Shown piece by piece: positions 37,270 through 41,529 of a stretch of 64,000 bases of DNA. Numbering within the stretch: position 1 is the stretch's first letter; every line of letters starts with the position of its first letter. The translations under genes and the position numbers were made by a program. This DNA comes from a bacterium (GTDB lineage: Bacteria; Patescibacteriota; Minisyncoccia; UBA6257; JAGOQP01). The notes beneath the pieces were generated by a model. The model was not told the origin of the DNA, searched no databases, and worked only from the letters and a program-made list of their open reading frames with translations. The stretch covers positions 3,819-67,818 of the forward strand of contig JAJXYJ010000021.1 of the NCBI GenBank assembly GCA_021780615.1, read 5' to 3'.

Positions 37270-37848
37270 CACCCCCATGGTGCTTTATATACAAAAGATA
37301 CGCGGGTGAAACGGTGCCGGCTTTATGTTGTCACACCTCATCCGCCGCGCGCGGATTTTTTATGCCACGACAGTCTTTTGAGAAAGTGCTCGTCCTTCAA
37401 AAACATAGGGGATTTAAGAAAGCGTCGCTGACTGATCCCATATCAGAACAATTGAGCAATGTAAACTCAATGTAGGTATGCTTTTTGCAGGACATAACAC
37501 TTCTGTAAAAAGTAGAGAAATGCATTTTCATCCTGCGTATGAACAATACAAAAGGATATGATCAAAAAATGAGCGTTTACTCAAGGGCGTATGGTGGATG
37601 CCTTGACACTGCATGGCGATGAAGGACGTAGCGTAGCTGCGAAAAGTCTCGGGGAGGTGCGTAGCAACCTGTGATCCGGGAATATCCGAATGGGGCAACC
37701 CAGTTGCGTAAACCGCAACTATCTCAACACATAAGATGTTGAGGAGCGAACCCGCTGAAGTGAAACATCCCAGTAAGCGGAGGAAAATAGAACGAATGTT
37801 ATTCCCCTAGTAGCGGCGAGCGAAAAGGGAATGAGCCCAAACCTAGAC

Positions 37849-37995
37849 GCATCTCACCAAGGTAAGATGCTTGGGAATTATCAATTTCCAATTTCCAATT
37901 TTCAATCAATTTTCTAATTTTAAAATTTCTAAATTTATTGATCATTGATAATTGATCATTGAACATTTTCTAAGCACCTCGCTTTCGTGAGGTGC
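37849..37995 (+). other. 23S intervening sequence 1. Its ends are complementary and its body is AT-rich.
   Basis: It begins gcatctcaccaagg.agatgcttggg, has an aatttccaatt-repeat body and ends gtgaggtgc. The ends pair as gcatctcac with gtgaggtgc. Confidence 0.55.
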
Positions 37996-39693
37996 GACTG
38001 GGGGTTGTAAGATATGTGCGCTTCTTTATATTTCGCCAAGTACTTGGCATCTCAAGTATTGGGCGATGTATGAAGTTAAGGAAGAGTTACAAATTATTTT
38101 GCTAGCAGAACCTTGTGGAACCGAGGACCGTAGAGGGCGAACGTCCCGTATGCGAAAGCAAAATAACTCTTTAGCATGTAATCTTGAGTACCTCGAAAAA
38201 TGAATGTTTCGAGGGAATCATCCCGCACTATCGGGAAAGGCTAAATACGTGCAGTGATCGATAGTGAACAAGTACCGTGAGGGAAAGGTGAAAAGCAGGC
38301 CGGCGAGGCCGATGAAATAGAACCTGAAACCATATGCCTACAAGGAACGGGAGCTCTAACTCCGATTTATCGGAGGGAGTGACCGTGTGCCTATTGAAGA
38401 ATGAGCCAACGAGTTTTTGTGTATCGCTGTCTAAGTTCCACGGAACGGAGGCAAAGCGAAAGCGAGTCTTAAAAGGGCGAAATAAAAAGCGGTACGCATA
38501 AGACCCGAAGCCAGGTGAGCTTGCCATGAGCAGGGTGAAGTCTCGAGAAATCGAGATGGAGGCCCGAACCGGTTGGTTGTGCAAAACCTTCGGATGACTT
38601 GTGGTAGGGAGTGAAAAGCTAATCGAACCTGGTAATAGCTGGTTCTCTCCGAAATAGTTTTAGGACTAGCGTCCCGGAAAAACGCTACAGGGGTAGAGCG
38701 ACTGGTAGAGAAGTAAAGGGGGAAACCTCGCCTTCTCTGTCAAACTCCGAATACTGTAGTGAACGCCGGGGCAGTCAGAATGTGGGGGCTAAGCTCCATG
38801 TTCGCGAGGGGAAGAGCCCAGACCGTCAATTAAGGTCCCTAAATCTATGCTCAGTGTAAAAAGTAGTGATTTGCCTCAGACAGGTAGGAGGTTGGCTTAG
38901 AGGTAGCCATCCTTTAAAGAGTGTGTAACAACCCACTACTAGATGGCAGGTTGCGCTGAAAATTTACCGGGGCTAAGCATAGTACCGAAATTACGGATTT
39001 CCTTTATTATTTATAATAAAGGGAGTGGTAGGAGAGCATTCCGTATGCGCTGAAGCCGGACCCGTGAGGGCCTGTGGAGCGTACGGAAGGGAGAATGTTG
39101 GTATGAGTAACCGCAATCCCGATGAGAATTCGGGACCCCGAAAATCCAAGGTTTCCTCCGCAATGGAAGTCAGCGGAGGGTTAGGCGGTCCTAAGGCAAT
39201 GGCGAAAGCCGCAGCTGATGGACAGCAGGTTAATATTCCTGCCCGCCTGTACGGTCCGATGGAGGGACGATGTGTAGTATATAGAGTGTCTCAGTGGTTT
39301 GGCATCCTTAACTGAGGATCTCCGGTAGGCAAATCCGCCGGGGTGCTTTTAATGGCAAATCTAAGGAAAGAGGTGATGTCCGCCTTTGGCGGGTAAAGTT
39401 TATAAAGCACACATCCAAGAAAATCTTCTAAGGATAACCGTATAGGCTCCGTACCGTAAACCGACACTGGTGGGTGAGGCGAGAAGCCTCAGGGGAACGA
39501 GTGAGTCATCCTCAAGGAACTCGGCAAAAAAGCGACTGTAACTTAGGAATAAAGTCTGCCCTGAGCAATCAGGGCCGCAGCGAAAGTATCTCTGGCGACT
39601 GTTTACTAAAAACACAGCTCCCTGCAAACTCGTAAGAGGAAGTATAGGGGGTGACACCTGACCGATGCGAGAAGGTTAACGGTGGAGGTGTAT

Positions 39694-39867
39694 GCATCTC
39701 ACCAAGGCGAGATGCTTGGGAAATTTTTAATTTCCAATTTTGTAATTTTTAAATAAATCTTAATTTTTAATGTTTTAAACATTATGATTTTGAATTTATT
39801 TACAAAATTCAAAAATTAAAAATTATAAAATTATCTTGAGCACCCAGCTTTTGTGAGGTGTATATGC
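39694..39867 (+). other. 23S intervening sequence 2, of the same family as IVS 1
   Basis: It has the same 25-nt 5' module, catctcaccaaggcgagatgcttggg, an AT-rich body, and 3' gtgaggtgtatatgc pairing with the 5' end. Confidence 0.55.
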
Positions 39868-40611
39868 TTACTGCCCGAAGCCCTCGTCAATGTCAGCGGT
39901 AACTATAACCGTTCTAAGGTAGCGCATTTCCTTTCCGGGTAAGTTCCGGAGCGCACGAATGGTGTAACGACTGGAGAACTGTCTCGAGGATGAGCTCGGT
40001 GAAAATGCGATTCCCGTGAAGACGCGGGGTACCTGCAGCGGGACGAAAAGACCCCAGGAGCTTTACTGCAGCTTGATATTGGTAGTAGAGTTTGTATGCG
40101 TAGCATAGTGAGGAGGCTTTGAAGTTTGTCTTTCGGGGCAGATGGAGCCGACAGTGAAATACTCATCTTGCGAATTTTACTCTCTAACCTTGCGGGCAAA
40201 AACCGTAGGGGACAGTGTCTGGTGGGCAGTTTTAATGGGGCGTTATCCTCCTAAAAAGTAACGGAGGAGTTTAAAGGTCAACTTAGTCCGGATGGAAATC
40301 GGACTGAAAGTGTAAAGGCAGAAGTTGGCTTAACGGCAAGACGTACGTGTCGCGCCGATGCGAAAGCAGAACTTAGTGACCCGACGGTAATGTTAAACAC
40401 TTTTTTTAAAAGAGTTTGACTCTTCATAGGAAGGCCGGAGACAACGGATAAAAGCTACCCTGGGGATAACAGGCTGGTGAGGTCCAAGAGTCCATATCGA
40501 CGACCTCGCTCGGCACCTCGATGTCGGCTCACCCTAGCGCGGGGCTGGAGAAGGTCCCAAGCGTTTGGCTGTTCGCCAATTAAAAGGGTACGCGAGCTGG
40601 GTTTAGACCGT

Positions 40612-41117
40612 TCAGATGCCAAATATATAGTTTGGCAGATGGACAGTCTAAATCCCATGAGGCGTTATTCTAAATTATTTCAAATTTCAAATCTTTTCGT
40701 TTCAAACTAGATTAAATATAACCAATAGATCACGGCGGTCATACGTAGAAATATGTATGTATCAAGATAGCTTATTTCGGAGAATTCCCACCCGCAGATG
40801 CGGAGGAGGACCCCGAGGGAAACCTGACTATGCAGTGCATGGAATTTTTAATTTTAAATTTTGTAATTTTTATTGAATTTTTAATGTTTTAATTTTAAAT
40901 TTTAAAATTGATTCATTTATAAGTTGATTGCCCTATAGGGGTCCGCTCATAGCGGAAAAATTGGAAATTGTAAATTGAAAATTATCACTTTTGAAAGTGA
41001 TAAAGGTGCCCGTAGAGACTACACGCTATCCATCCGATTCAATAAGCAGGAGTGTATCCTGATCTTGTCGAAGGATGATGTTATAGTCCAATGCGCATCG
41101 TAATATGCGGAATCATG
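40612..41117 (+). mobile_element. ORF-less group I intron in the 23S rRNA at the I-CreI-type site (E. coli about 2593)
   Basis: The exon context is GGGTTTAGACCGT^...^CGTGAGACAGGTTGGTC. The 5' exon ends in U and the intron ends in G. P7-like GACTAC...TAGTCC elements are present. The intron contains an embedded copy of the dispersed repeat. Confidence 0.6.
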
Positions 41118-41529
41118 CGTGAGACAGGTTGGTCTCTATCTGCTGCAGGCGTTGACACTTGAGGGAAGTTGGCCCTAGTACGAGAGGACCGGGCTGAACG
41201 AACCTCTGGTCTACCAGCTTTGGTACCAACTGAAGCGCTGGGTAGCTATGTTCGGAAGGGATAAGCGCTGAAAGCATCTAAGCACGAAGCCCCTCCCAAG
41301 ATAAGGTGTCTTAGGACCCTGGAAGATGACCAGGTTGATAGGCTCTCGGTGTACGCACAGTAATGTGTTTAGCCAAGGAGTACTAATAGTCCATTTGAAC
41401 GCTCTTTTTTGAGCAGGTATCATGTGTTTCTCTACTTTTTAAAGAAGTGTTATTGAGTGTATACAGTGTGCTTAATTGTTTTGATATTATATAGTGTACG
41501 AAGCAAACGAAAGATAAAAAAATACTTTC

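What the first reader, a model, noticed from the sequence alone, without database searches (positions are those of the whole stretch)
37560..41402. 23S rRNA carrying two same-family intervening sequences plus an ORF-less group I intron at the I-CreI-type site, with no linked 16S
Conserved 23S blocks are interrupted three times. Two interruptions (37849..37995 and 39694..39867) begin with a nearly identical 25-nt module, catctcaccaagg(t/c)(a/g)agatgcttggg. Each has an AT-rich aatttccaatt-type body and a 3' end, gtgaggtg..., that pairs with the 5' end. That pairing is the classic extended-helix IVS architecture excised by RNase III, and it implies a fragmented mature 23S. Two IVSs sharing one terminal module suggest that the family spreads by copy-paste.

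The third interruption is about 506 nt (40612..41117). It lies exactly in GGGTTTAGACCGT^CGTGAGACAGG, the homing site of I-CreI-type LSU introns. Its upstream exon ends in U and the intron ends in G, it has P7-like GACTAC/TAGTCC elements, and it encodes no homing endonuclease ORF. The intron also harbours a copy of the dispersed GC-hairpin/aaattg repeat.

No 16S gene precedes the 23S within 37 kb, so the rRNA genes are unlinked.
Basis: partly seen in the sequence, partly recalled or inferred. Interest (0 to 1): 0.7.

Follow-up and report, generated by a model that had tools for sequence, protein, structure and literature searches.

The report
Interrupted 23S rRNA gene, CPR bacterium

Summary
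Rfam places a complete bacterial 23S rRNA at 37571-41406 (+), with 5S at 41534-41641 and no 16S anywhere in the 64 kb. The host is a Patescibacteria (Paceibacterota-like) MAG.

Segment 40612-41117 lies exactly between E. coli U2593 and C2594. It is an ORF-less group I intron. Ninety-six homologues occupy the same site in metagenomes. Covariation supports P1-P9: 94.6% of cells pair, against 31-43% when the partners are slid. Longer family members carry an I-CreI-like LAGLIDADG gene in the P6 loop. In the window that loop holds a 147-nt copy of a dispersed heptamer-repeat hairpin element.

Segments 37849-37995 and 39694-39867 cap an H15-type hairpin and helix 68. Both sites are empty in the closest relatives. 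Both segments are diverged members of a CPR-wide hairpin-insert family: basal stem, conserved hairpin A, heptamer-repeat core, conserved hairpin B. That family occurs at six or more 23S helices, with up to three full copies and a truncated fourth per gene.

Excision of the two inserts, and hence a fragmented 23S, is plausible but untested. All the component kinds are known for CPR. The conserved-end insert family appears undescribed.

The parts
37571..41406 (+). 23S rRNA gene. It is 3836 nt long, or 3009 nt without the three inserts.
   Evidence: Rfam LSU_rRNA_bacteria scores 2304.9 bits over the full model. The spliced sequence aligns end to end with E. coli rrlH.
37849..37995 (+). IVS1, a 147-nt hairpin insert. 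It caps the H15-type hairpin (Rfam model positions 274-298, about E. coli 271-276). Hairpin A module is at 37849-37870, the heptamer-repeat core (CAATTTN and its complement) at about 37876-37967, and hairpin B module at 37973-37995.
   Evidence: One search gives the fold (z -8.7). Searches show each module twice in the window. Searches show the site is empty in L010-L012. One search shows that family model R1 has its best hit in the whole window here (37844-38000, 30.8 bits, E 0.003).
39694..39867 (+). IVS2, a 174-nt hairpin insert. It replaces the apical GNRA loop of helix 68 (E. coli GCAA 1869-1872). The 5' module is at 39694-39722 and the 3' module at 39839-39860.
   Evidence: One search gives the fold (z -8.5). 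Searches show the modules shared with IVS1. Searches show the site is empty in L010-L012, L023 and L079. One search gives the E. coli coordinates.
40612..41117 (+). ORF-less group I intron, 506 nt, inserted after E. coli U2593 (site L2593, the I-CreI site).
   Evidence: fix the position. Searches find 96 homologues at the same site. Searches give covariation for P1-P9. One search shows the homologue in L079 passes the Rfam Intron_gpI cut-off (63.7 bits). One search finds no ORF longer than 42 aa inside. One search finds no endonuclease remnant.
40600..40655 (+). P1. The 5' exon GGTTTAGACCGT (40600-40611) pairs with the internal guide TGGACAGTCTAAATCC (40640-40655). An L1 hairpin lies at 40618-40636.
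   Evidence: The guide covaries with exon polymorphisms in other hosts (CG:31/UA:6 and GC:23/AU:13). The splice-site pair is U-A in 33 of 37 sequences and U.G in 4.
40737..41011 (+). Intron P2 (40737-40763), P3 5' strand (40766-40771), P4/P5/P5a (40777-40816) and P6 (40817-40825 with 41004-41011).
   Evidence: P2, P3, P5 and P6 have compensatory changes. P4 is invariant.
40841..40985 (+). Copy of the dispersed heptamer-repeat plus GC-hairpin element, inserted in the terminal loop of intron P6.
   Evidence: One search aligns it with the intergenic copies (34680-34826 and 765-935 reverse complement). Searches show it is absent from the homologous introns of L010, L011 and L012; L079 carries only a short AT-rich run there. 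One search shows this is the loop that holds the LAGLIDADG gene in endonuclease-bearing relatives.
41012..41117 (+). Intron catalytic core, 3' half. J6/7 plus P7 5' strand is GTAGAGACTAC (41012-41022). P3 3' strand is at 41025-41030 and P8 at 41031-41077. J8/7 plus P7 3' strand is ATGTTATAGTCC (41078-41089). P9 is at 41093-41109 and the terminal G at 41117.
   Evidence: One search gives the Rfam alignment (25 bits). One search gives covariation in P3, P8 and P9. One search gives the coordinates.
41534..41641 (+). 5S rRNA, 127 nt downstream of the 23S.
   Evidence: 56.4 bits.
37555..41420 (+). Leader-trailer processing stem that brackets the 23S (about 37560-37580 pairing with about 41395-41415).
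   Evidence: The duplex is -32.2 kcal/mol and includes a 17-18 bp stem.
34680..34826 (+). Intergenic copy of the dispersed heptamer-repeat hairpin element, the closest match to the intron's insert. Other copies or arrays lie at 765-935 (-), 16129-16161, 28956-29026, 37088-37195 and 42178-42261.
   Evidence: (20 heptamer doublets against 2.0 expected).

Best explanation
The window carries the single 23S-5S rRNA unit of a CPR/Patescibacteria (Paceibacterota-like) bacterium. Its 16S gene lies elsewhere. The 23S gene holds two kinds of passenger.

(1) Group I intron, 40612-41117. It interrupts helix 93 of the peptidyl-transferase centre exactly at U2593|C2594. It is a member of a large CPR intron family that descends from, and still partly carries, I-CreI-type LAGLIDADG homing endonuclease genes. 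The window's copy has no endonuclease gene, so it can no longer home and is inherited vertically. It must be removed for the ribosome to work. The removal is presumably the standard guanosine-initiated self-splicing reaction, guided by the P1 pairing of the exon with the internal guide. Its P6 loop is the family's cargo site for the endonuclease gene. Here that loop has been colonised by a 147-nt copy of the genome's dispersed heptamer-repeat hairpin element.

(2) Two paralogous hairpin inserts, 37849-37995 and 39694-39867. They cap an H15-type hairpin and helix 68. Each consists of a host-continuous basal stem, conserved hairpin A, a variable core of complementary heptamer-repeat arms, and conserved hairpin B. 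They are diverged members of an insert family found at many 23S helix tips across CPR. Most likely (inferred, not shown) the conserved ends form a double-stranded processing site of about 22-27 bp. That site would be cut after transcription by RNase III or a similar nuclease. The insert would be removed and the mature 23S left in pieces held together by the ribosome, as with classical bacterial IVSs.

Shown: identity, positions, structures, homologues and empty sites. Inferred: splicing activity, IVS excision, and how the inserts spread.
For: Gene and host.
- Searches identify the 23S and 5S genes and find no 16S.
- Searches identify the window as MAG contig DAIEGZ010000013.1.
- One search shows the nearest LeuRS relatives are all Patescibacteria/Paceibacterota MAGs, at 66% identity or less.

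Intron.
- Position.
- One search finds the homologous intron in L010, L011, L012 and L079, and an empty site in L013, L023 and L084.
- Searches find 112 metagenome loci; 96 hold a complete intron at the same site, 246-785 nt long.
- Searches count 63 pairs with 94.6% of cells paired, against 31-43% when partners are slid. Forty-two pairs have compensatory changes. The covariation score is 0.505 against 0.06-0.12.
- One search shows L079's copy scores 63.7 bits on Rfam Intron_gpI (gathering score 50).
- Searches show that long members encode a 154-165 aa LAGLIDADG_1 protein. It matches I-CreI over its full length at E 1.5e-26.
- One search places that ORF in the P6 loop and finds no remnant of it in the window.
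- Searches identify the P6 insert as a dispersed element.

IVSs.
- Searches give the folds and the shared modules.
- Searches show the empty sites in relatives.
- define the conserved-end family at H15, H25, H45, H63, H68 and one further helix.
- Searches give its structure, with covariation in the basal stem and hairpin A.
- Searches show the family model's best hit in the whole window is IVS1, with exact boundaries (30.8 bits, E about 0.003).
- One search shows a long leader-trailer stem around the 23S, of the kind used for double-strand-specific processing.
Against: - Rfam's generic group I model scores the window's own intron only 25 bits, against a gathering score of 50.
- The predicted 5' splice-site pair is U-A in 33 of 37 family members, not the canonical U.G.
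- P4 and P7 are invariant. P7's invariance was forced by my search pattern, so P7 has no covariation support.
- IVS2 on its own scores only 15.3 bits with the family model. Its membership rests on being a paralogue of IVS1.
- The window's exact module was not found in any other genome or metagenome.
- No RNA data, no RNase III gene and no splicing assay were available. Removal of any of the three segments is therefore unproven.
- The family's conserved ends fit a cruciform slightly better than the rod expected of an RNase III substrate.
Confidence: 0.78

Rival explanations
1. The two hairpin inserts are not excised. They persist in the mature 23S as species-specific expansion segments that project from the ribosome surface, and the 23S stays in one piece.
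For: Both inserts sit at helix tips and continue the host helix. The H15 region is a known variable or expansion site (own knowledge). The same tips carry inserts of 63-197 nt in other CPR lineages, so the ribosome tolerates length changes there. No processing was demonstrated.
Against: The ends are strongly conserved across lineages and across helices, while the cores are free to vary. That pattern points to a recognised signal rather than inert padding. By own knowledge, not tested here, helix 68 lies on the subunit-interface side, where a rod of about 170 nt would be awkward. The literature reports that CPR rRNA insertions are generally absent from transcripts (Brown et al. 2015, as cited in PMC9297842).
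Confidence: 0.22
2. The hairpin inserts are primarily DNA-level mobile elements that happen to be tolerated in rRNA helix tips. They would resemble REPIN or PATE elements or MITEs: two near-identical short palindromes (hairpins A and B) flanking a spacer, mobilised in trans by a single-strand-DNA transposase such as a RAYT or IS200/IS605 TnpA. Their conserved ends would then be transposase recognition hairpins, not RNA processing signals. This concerns how they spread. It is compatible with later excision at the RNA level.
For: Hairpins A and B are palindromes that resemble each other, and covariation favours the local hairpins. The same element type occurs at six or more helices, with up to three full copies and a truncated fourth in one gene (L184). 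The cores are built from the genome's own dispersed heptamer-repeat arrays, which also sit in intergenic regions, in an intron loop and even in coding sequence.
Against: The conserved-end modules were found only inside 23S genes, never in the roughly 1.5 Mb of flanking DNA in hand. Strong orientation is also kept: the + strand scores far higher than the - strand. Both observations suit an RNA-level constraint. There is no consistent target-site duplication. No transposase was looked for or seen.
Confidence: 0.3
3. The 506-nt segment is a decayed intron that has lost its endonuclease and been invaded by a repeat. It can no longer self-splice, so it either needs a host factor or the gene is a dead 23S copy.
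For: The Rfam score is low (25 bits). A 147-nt foreign element sits in P6. The splice-site pair is U-A. The second assembly differs at about 9% of intron positions but at about 0.1% of flanking positions.
Against: All core helices are intact in the window's copy and fit the family covariation (row 1 of A3). The insert lies in a terminal loop that carries a gene of about 500 nt in functional-looking relatives. The U-A pair is the family norm, not a private defect. CPR genomes generally have a single 23S gene (PMC11270868, PMC9297842), and the exons are fully conserved.
Confidence: 0.06
4. The inserts are assembly artefacts, that is, repeat-induced chimeras in a metagenome assembly.
For: AT-rich dispersed repeats are present. 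Contigs from other assemblies break at the 23S start (L002) or at the intron end (L003).
Against: A second NCBI MAG assembly (L003, GCA_021837645.1), which differs from the window at 55 positions, carries both IVSs unchanged and carries the intron. Homologous inserts at the same sites occur in dozens of unrelated contigs.
Confidence: 0.02

Closest known systems
Group I introns at 23S position L2593 with I-CreI-family LAGLIDADG endonucleases. Examples: Chlamydomonas chloroplast Cr.LSU/I-CreI, I-MsoI, I-CvuI; Synechococcus and Thermosynechococcus L2593 (PMC1995217); CPR site 2593 (PMC11270868).
   Same: The insertion point is identical, U2593|C2594. Endonuclease-bearing members of the same intron family encode a single-motif LAGLIDADG protein that matches I-CreI at E 1.5e-26 over its full length. 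[quoted passage not shown]
   Different: The window's copy has no endonuclease gene and no remnant of one. It lacks the P7.1/P7.2 extension described for the cyanobacterial L2593 introns, because its P3 3' strand abuts P8 (PMC1995217). Its splice-site pair is U-A rather than U.G. Its P6 loop holds a repeat element.
Classical bacterial 23S intervening sequences excised by RNase III. Examples: Salmonella H25/H45, Leptospira, Campylobacter and Coxiella H45, Rhizobiales H9 (PMC4990558, PMC8708148).
   Same: An extended stem-loop replaces a helix tip. Distribution is sporadic, with empty sites in close relatives. No ligation signal is evident. More than one IVS can occur per gene.
   Different: The sites here are an H15-type hairpin and H68, not H9, H25 or H45. 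The two inserts share conserved twin-hairpin ends and a heptamer-repeat core. There is no IVS-encoded protein (23S_rRNA_IVP/S23p). Excision is untested.
'Uncharacterised short ISs' in CPR 23S rRNA genes (Tsurumaki et al. 2024, PMC11270868).
   Same: Short (under 200-250 bp), ORF-less, non-intron insertions that are concentrated at particular 23S sites in CPR bacteria. The authors presume they are IVS-like.
   Different: As far as the accessible text shows, that paper does not report conserved terminal hairpins, heptamer-repeat cores, or copies of one family at several helices. No paper in the library contains the module sequence.
Heptanucleotide-repeat stem-loops in the P6b of the Nostoc tRNA-Leu(UAA) group I intron (PMC4476775).
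   Same: A peripheral P6 stem-loop of a bacterial group I intron is built from complementary 7-nt repeat units. These cause length variation without disturbing the core.
   Different: The host phylum, gene and repeat units all differ. Here the P6 insert is a recognisable copy of a composite element that is also found in intergenic DNA.
REP/REPIN, PATE and Rickettsia palindromic elements (own knowledge).
   Same: Short palindromic, hairpin-forming, dispersed non-coding repeats. Some are tolerated inside structured RNA genes or in coding sequence.
   Different: No associated transposase was identified. The conserved-end modules were seen only inside 23S genes.

Membership tests
Group I intron | P1: an internal guide sequence pairs with the end of the 5' exon, and the exon ends in U (canonically a U.G pair). 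| tested here: met
   The exon-guide helix covaries with host exon polymorphisms and the exon ends in U40611. The cleavage-site pair is U-A in the window and in 33 of 37 family members, and U.G in 4. That departs from the canonical wobble.
Group I intron | Conserved core P3-P4-P5-P6-P7-P8-P9 with the P3/P7 pseudoknot, and a terminal G. | tested here: met
   One search counts 63 pairs, 94.6% paired, with compensatory changes in P2, P3, P5, P6, P8 and P9. P4 and P7 are invariant, so they are neither supported nor contradicted. The intron ends in G41117.
Group I intron | Reaches the Rfam Intron_gpI (RF00028) gathering score. | tested here: not met
   The window scores 25 bits against a cut-off of 50. 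The homologous intron in L079 scores 63.7 bits. The shortfall reflects the model's fit to this divergent copy with its insert, not the absence of a core.
Group I intron | Self-splicing with exogenous guanosine. | not testable with these tools
   This needs an in vitro transcript or RNA-seq junction reads.
L2593 / I-CreI-lineage intron-endonuclease elements | Insertion between E. coli 23S U2593 and C2594. | tested here: met
L2593 / I-CreI-lineage intron-endonuclease elements | Encodes an I-CreI-family LAGLIDADG homing endonuclease. | tested here: not met
   There is no ORF and no tblastn remnant in the window's intron. The gene is present in longer members of the same intron family. The window's copy is therefore an endonuclease-less derivative.
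Cyanobacterial-type L2593 introns (P7.1/P7.2-bearing, PMC1995217) | An extension of about 65 nt (P7.1/P7.2) between P3' and P8. | tested here: not met
   P3 3' strand (41025-41030) is directly followed by P8 (41031 onward).
RNase III-excised bacterial 23S IVS | An extended stem-loop that replaces a helix tip and is absent from close relatives. | tested here: met
RNase III-excised bacterial 23S IVS | Excised from the precursor without re-ligation, giving a fragmented 23S; an RNase III gene is present. | not testable with these tools
   No RNA data were available, and only 64 kb of the genome is in hand. Indirect support only: a 17-18 bp leader-trailer stem.
CPR twin-hairpin IVS family (defined here, model R1) | Basal stem, then conserved hairpin A (CATCACAyTGCrTGTGATG), a variable heptamer-repeat core, then conserved hairpin B (CATCGyGCrTAGCGTGATG). 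| tested here: met
   IVS1 is the best R1 hit in the window (30.8 bits, E about 0.003, full model, exact boundaries). By my manual comparison of the window sequence with the family consensus, hairpin A is 8/9 and 7/9 identical with one compensatory A-U to U-A change, and hairpin B is 6/8 and 5/8 identical with two compensatory changes. IVS2 alone scores only 15.3 bits. It qualifies as a paralogue of IVS1.
CPR twin-hairpin IVS family (defined here, model R1) | Sits at a 23S helix tip that the family uses elsewhere. | tested here: met
   The H15-type site is used in L151. The H68 tip is used in L092, L104, L137 and L158.
MITE / REPIN-like DNA transposable element | Target-site duplication, many dispersed genomic copies, and a cognate transposase. 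| tested here: inconclusive
   No consistent duplication was found. The conserved-end modules occur only in 23S genes. The heptamer-repeat core type is dispersed. A transposase was not searched for.
Unlinked rRNA genes | No 16S adjacent to the 23S. | tested here: met
   No SSU hit occurs in the 37.5 kb upstream or the 22.6 kb downstream. None occurs upstream of the 23S in relatives L013 (4.7 kb) and L023 (5.3 kb). This is known to be common in Patescibacteria (bioRxiv 10.1101/705046).

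The most novel reading that the evidence does not exclude
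The two hairpin inserts would be members of an undescribed CPR-wide family of rRNA passengers. Their near-identical twin terminal hairpins can switch between a rod and a cruciform. Those hairpins would be the recognition sites of a dedicated, probably dimeric, enzyme. That enzyme would be either an RNA endonuclease that removes the insert, possibly followed by re-ligation (a third, protein-dependent kind of bacterial rRNA 'intron'), or a single-strand-DNA transposase that copies the element between helix tips. The variable core would be generated by the genome-wide heptamer-repeat process that also reshapes intron loops, intergenic hairpins and even the LeuRS coding sequence.
Probability: 0.25. 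Interest if true: 0.75.

Novelty: new variant of a known kind. Interest (0 to 1): 0.45.

Why it matters
For this gene taken alone, little is new. It is a typical CPR 23S rRNA gene. rRNA introns at 2593, short IVS-like inserts and unlinked rRNA genes are all already on record for the group.

Two points reach beyond that.

(1) About half of the insertions in CPR rRNA genes are neither group I nor group II introns and have stayed uncharacterised. This locus led to a concrete, searchable definition of one such class: twin conserved hairpins, a heptamer-repeat core, several helices, several copies per gene, and a covariance model. With that definition, how these inserts are removed and how they spread becomes directly testable using existing metatranscriptomes and genomes.

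(2) The locus shows one cargo site, intron P6, holding a homing-endonuclease gene in some lineages and a repeat element in this one. The same repeat process acts on rRNA, intron, intergenic and coding DNA. That is a compact example of how selfish and repeat DNA remodel essential RNA genes in very small genomes.

A practical point follows as well. Inserts of this kind break 23S-based probes, primers and rRNA annotation in CPR genomes.

Tried and rejected
- A global alignment of the uncut gene to E. coli 23S placed the intron wrongly. I repeated it after cutting out the three segments.
- Exact-pattern scans for the window's own IVS module found nothing in genome contigs or metagenome contigs. 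The link to other genomes came later, through the diverged consensus module.
- Rfam's group I model is below threshold on the window. Its apparent P1/P2 alignment falls inside the repeat element and is spurious. Only the P7-P9 part is meaningful.
- I looked for target-site duplications at both IVSs. IVS2 has a suggestive GAGGTGTAT(AT)G on both sides, but IVS1 and the family members have none. I rejected this as evidence for transposition.
- I looked for an endonuclease remnant in the intron by tblastn. The only hit had E = 1.1.
- My regex anchors for the H15 and H68 tips gave many false pairs. I used only hits with clear 23S flanks, then replaced the approach with a BLAST-based insertion catalogue.
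- An Rfam E-value scan of 37190-37575, aimed at a possible small RNA between the promoter-like and terminator-like sites, found nothing credible.
- I considered Leptospira and Planctomycetes as the source, because of unlinked rRNA genes and an IVS. I rejected both once the LeuRS neighbours showed Patescibacteria.
- I did not classify the intron subgroup. The subgroup covariance models were not available. I can only say that P7.1/P7.2 are absent.

Full report
WHAT IS THERE

Rfam finds one complete bacterial 23S rRNA at 37571-41406 on the + strand. It scores 2304.9 bits and covers model positions 1-2925 within 3836 nt. A 5S rRNA lies at 41534-41641 and two tRNAs near 58.7-58.9 kb. No 16S rRNA is present anywhere in the 64 kb.

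Removing 37849-37995, 39694-39867 and 40612-41117 leaves 3009 nt. That sequence aligns end to end with E. coli rrlH. The remaining length differences (about 95 nt at 38003-38097 and 32 nt at 40389-40420) are shared with relatives, so they are native.

The window is nearly identical to NCBI MAG contig DAIEGZ010000013.1 (74.5 kb). A second assembly (JAKBFO010000025.1, L003) is 99.5% identical.

A LeuRS-based search of species-representative genomes returned almost only Patescibacteria MAGs (Paceibacterota, Parcubacteria, Wolfebacteria and others). The best identity was 66%. The host is therefore a CPR bacterium without a close representative. Several relatives keep the 23S-5S-…-LeuRS order, which gave direct comparisons.

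THE INTRON (40612-41117)

Position. E. coli GGGTTTAGAACGT ends at 2593 and CGTGAGACAG starts at 2594. The window reads GGGTTTAGACCGT|…|CGTGAGACAGG. The insert therefore sits exactly at L2593, the I-CreI site.

Distribution in relatives. L013, L023 and L084 have an uninterrupted site. L010, L011, L012 and L079 have a homologous intron of 308-426 nt.

Family size. A pattern taken from the invariant core found 112 metagenome loci. Ninety-six of them hold a complete intron at this same site, 246-785 nt long.

Structure. I aligned 37 non-redundant ORF-less members, with the window as row 1 after cutting out its repeat element. The consensus has P1, P2, P3, P4, P5, P6, P8 and P9. I added P7 as a pseudoknot.
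- 94.6% of cells pair, against 31-43% when the partners are slid.
- 42 of 63 pairs have compensatory changes.
- The covariation score is 0.505, against 0.06-0.12 for the slid controls.
- In P1 the guide sequence follows host exon polymorphisms (TTTAGAC, TTCAGAC, TTCAAAC).
- P4 and P7 never vary. P7's invariance was imposed by my search pattern, so it is uninformative.

Rfam scores. The generic Rfam model gives the window only 25 bits. It gives 63.7 bits, above its cut-off, to the homologue in L079.

Endonuclease. Members of about 690-740 nt carry a 154-165 aa ORF. Pfam assigns it to LAGLIDADG_1. It matches I-CreI over its full length at E 1.5e-26, and also matches I-MsoI and I-CvuI. The ORF lies in the P6 terminal loop. 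The window has no ORF longer than 42 aa inside the intron and no tblastn remnant of the endonuclease.

Differences from described relatives. The cyanobacterial L2593 introns have P7.1/P7.2 (PMC1995217). This family does not, because its P3 3' strand abuts P8. One oddity remains: the cleavage-site pair is U-A in 33 of 37 members, the window included, and U.G in only 4.

THE REPEAT ELEMENT IN P6

Segment 40841-40985 is absent from the introns of L010, L011 and L012; L079 has only a short AT-rich run at that point. It aligns along its whole length with the intergenic elements at 34680-34826 and 765-935 (reverse complement).

The shared layout is: a left arm of CAATTTN heptamers, an AT-rich palindrome, ATTGATTGCC, one or two GC hairpins, and a right arm of NAAATTG heptamers.

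Heptamer doublets occur 20 times in the window, against 2.0 expected by chance. Seventeen period-7 arrays are present. Two of them lie inside the LeuRS coding sequence. The cargo loop that holds the endonuclease gene in other lineages therefore holds a genomic repeat here.

Other family members carry different heptamer arrays in L1 or P6. The analogy is the 7-nt repeat stem-loop in P6b of the Nostoc trnL intron (PMC4476775).

THE TWO HAIRPIN INSERTS

IVS1 extends the hairpin at Rfam model positions 274-298. This is an H15-type hairpin, absent in E. coli at about 271-276. IVS2 replaces the apical loop of helix 68 (E. coli GCAA 1869-1872).

Each folds with its flanks into one long hairpin, with z -8.7 and z -8.5. 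L010, L011 and L012 have short GNRA-capped hairpins at both sites. The window's segments are therefore lineage-specific insertions.

The two share a 29-nt 5' module (27 of 29 identical) and a 22-nt 3' module (19 of 22 identical). Each module occurs only twice in the window. The AT-rich cores are much less alike. The exact module was not found in other genomes or metagenomes.

A catalogue of insertions in about 119 CPR 23S fragments changed the picture. Hairpin-type inserts near E. coli 270, 540, 1060, 1160, 1730 and 1870 in many lineages share conserved ends:
- 5' end: yGyGCG-CATCACAyTGCrTGTGATG
- 3' end: CATCGyGCrTAGCGTGATG-yGCryG
Up to three full copies and a truncated fourth occur per gene (L184).

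The consensus structure of these inserts has four parts:
- a covarying basal stem, continuous with the host helix;
- hairpin A, 8 bp with a UGC triloop and compensatory changes at its top;
- a variable heptamer-repeat core;
- hairpin B, 8 bp with a GUA or GAA triloop.
The alternative rod, in which A pairs with B, is almost as compatible: 90.9% paired against 96.6%. The ends can probably adopt both forms.

I built a covariance model from 12 members. Its best hit in the whole window, on either strand and with filters off, is 37844-38000. That is IVS1 with its basal stem, at 30.8 bits and E about 0.003, covering the full model.

By my manual comparison of the window sequence with the family consensus, the window's modules are diverged versions of the two hairpins.
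- Hairpin A: GCATCTCAC-CAAG-GTAAGATGC against GCATCACAC-TGC-GTGTGATGC. One A-U to U-A change is compensatory.
- Hairpin B: CACCTCGC-TTTC-GTGAGGTG against CATCGCGC-GTA-GCGTGATG. Two changes are compensatory.

IVS2 alone scores only 15.3 bits. It is tied to IVS1 by the shared modules. Both of its sites, H15 and H68, are used by the family elsewhere (L151; L092, L104, L137, L158).

A reduced variant with GCAGCAC…GTGCTGT ends occurs at H68 (L088, L124) and at H15 (L079). No paper in the searchable library contains the module sequence.

HOW IT MOST LIKELY WORKS

Shown: the identity, positions, structures, homologues and empty sites described above.

Inferred for the intron. It is removed by standard group I self-splicing. 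It must be removed, because it splits helix 93 in the peptidyl-transferase centre of what is probably the only 23S gene. It no longer homes, because the endonuclease gene is gone.

Inferred for the two IVSs. In the rod form, the conserved ends give a 22-27 bp duplex with small internal loops. That is the kind of substrate RNase III cuts in classical IVSs. A 17-18 bp leader-trailer stem around the 23S shows that double-strand processing signals are used at this locus. I rate excision with fragmentation at about 0.6, retention as expansion segments at about 0.2, and other routes (including cut-and-rejoin) as the remainder.

How the family spreads between helices is open. It could be DNA-level transposition of a REPIN-like element, gene conversion, or an RNA-level route. 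The modules' confinement to 23S genes and their fixed orientation argue for at least an RNA-level constraint.

COMPARISON WITH WHAT IS KNOWN

Tsurumaki et al. (PMC11270868) report the following for CPR 23S genes:
- insertions in 82% of genes;
- group I introns at 1917, 1931, 1952, 2593, 2604 and 2657;
- 222 ORF-less group I introns;
- single-domain LAGLIDADG enzymes;
- many short, unclassified, probably IVS-like insertions.

Unlinked rRNA genes are typical of Patescibacteria (bioRxiv 10.1101/705046). None of six relatives shows a 16S next to its 23S either.

The finding as written is therefore a correct description of a known kind of locus. What I did not find described is the conserved twin-hairpin, heptamer-core insert family and its relation to the genome-wide heptamer repeats.

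VERDICT

Novelty is modest: the intron is a new member of a known kind, and the IVS family is a new variant of a known kind. Interest is 0.45.

Noticed in passing
window 43612-43644 and 44844-44872 (inside the LeuRS ORF 43479-45779); L009 10095-10121, 11341-11376, 11500-11534, 11910-11945: Heptamer-repeat arrays (GGAAATT/CAATTTC units) lie inside the LeuRS coding sequence. They encode IGNWKLEIDN and NDQFPISNK. The relative L009 has (CAATTTC)4 arrays at three places in its LeuRS gene. The genome's repeat process therefore also acts on coding DNA.
   Followed up: partly
window 40611/40651 region; alignment A3 columns 10/112: The predicted 5' splice-site pair of this intron family is U-A in 33 of 37 members and U.G in only 4. 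There is also a constant C-N mismatch three positions upstream. Group I introns normally have a U.G wobble here.
   Followed up: partly
window 40729-40738 (ATCACGGCGG) and 41118-41122: A nearly invariant intron segment, AUCACGGCGG, lies just 5' of P2. It contains UCACG, which is complementary to the first five bases of the 3' exon (CGUGA). RNAalifold instead paired GCG with CGU. This may be a displaced P10-like contact. There is no covariation, because both sides are invariant.
   Followed up: no
L003 (GCA_021837645.1) against window 40621-41063: The second assembly of this species differs from the window at 55 positions over 11.6 kb, and 45 of them lie inside the intron. That is about 9% divergence in the intron against about 0.1% in the flanks. 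Apparently compensatory changes occur in the GC hairpins of the P6 repeat element. The contig also ends 8 nt before the intron's 3' end. The cause may be distinct intron alleles or a strain-level assembly break.
   Followed up: partly
window 37241-37269 and 37340-37362: A strong promoter-like site (TTGACA-17-TATACT, 11 of 12) is followed about 75 nt later by a GC hairpin and T-run terminator-like site. Both lie between the 555-aa ORF and the 23S, so a transcript of about 80 nt is possible. No Rfam family matches.
   Followed up: partly
L079 3756-4178 and 5359-6121; L084 84-911; L013 6768-7600; L010 2974-3253: Relatives carry other 23S insertions that the window lacks. One of about 420 nt lies at the window equivalent of 39920 (E. 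coli about 1917-1931). Inserts of about 760-830 nt lie in the sarcin-ricin-loop region (about 2657). One of 832 nt in L013 lies between the window equivalents of 39679 and 39907. Inserts of 104-255 nt lie at the classical helix 45 IVS site.
   Followed up: no
L088/L115/L168, L124/L187 (H68 tip); L079/L166 (H15-type hairpin): A reduced type of hairpin insert has ends tgtg.GCAGCAC…GTGCTGTkc and heptamer-repeat arms (TAAGTTT and CTAAACT units). It occurs at the same two helix tips as the window's IVSs but in other lineages. It resembles the basal part of the twin-hairpin family without hairpins A and B.
   Followed up: partly
window 43430-43462: A perfect (CTGATTA)4 heptamer array lies immediately upstream of the LeuRS start codon. 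Its unit differs from the CAATTTN family.
   Followed up: no
window 34738-37102: The genes just upstream of the 23S are a lamin-tail-domain (LTD) protein and a 555-aa protein with no Pfam match. The exact 555-aa protein is found on at least six contigs from four sources.
   Followed up: no
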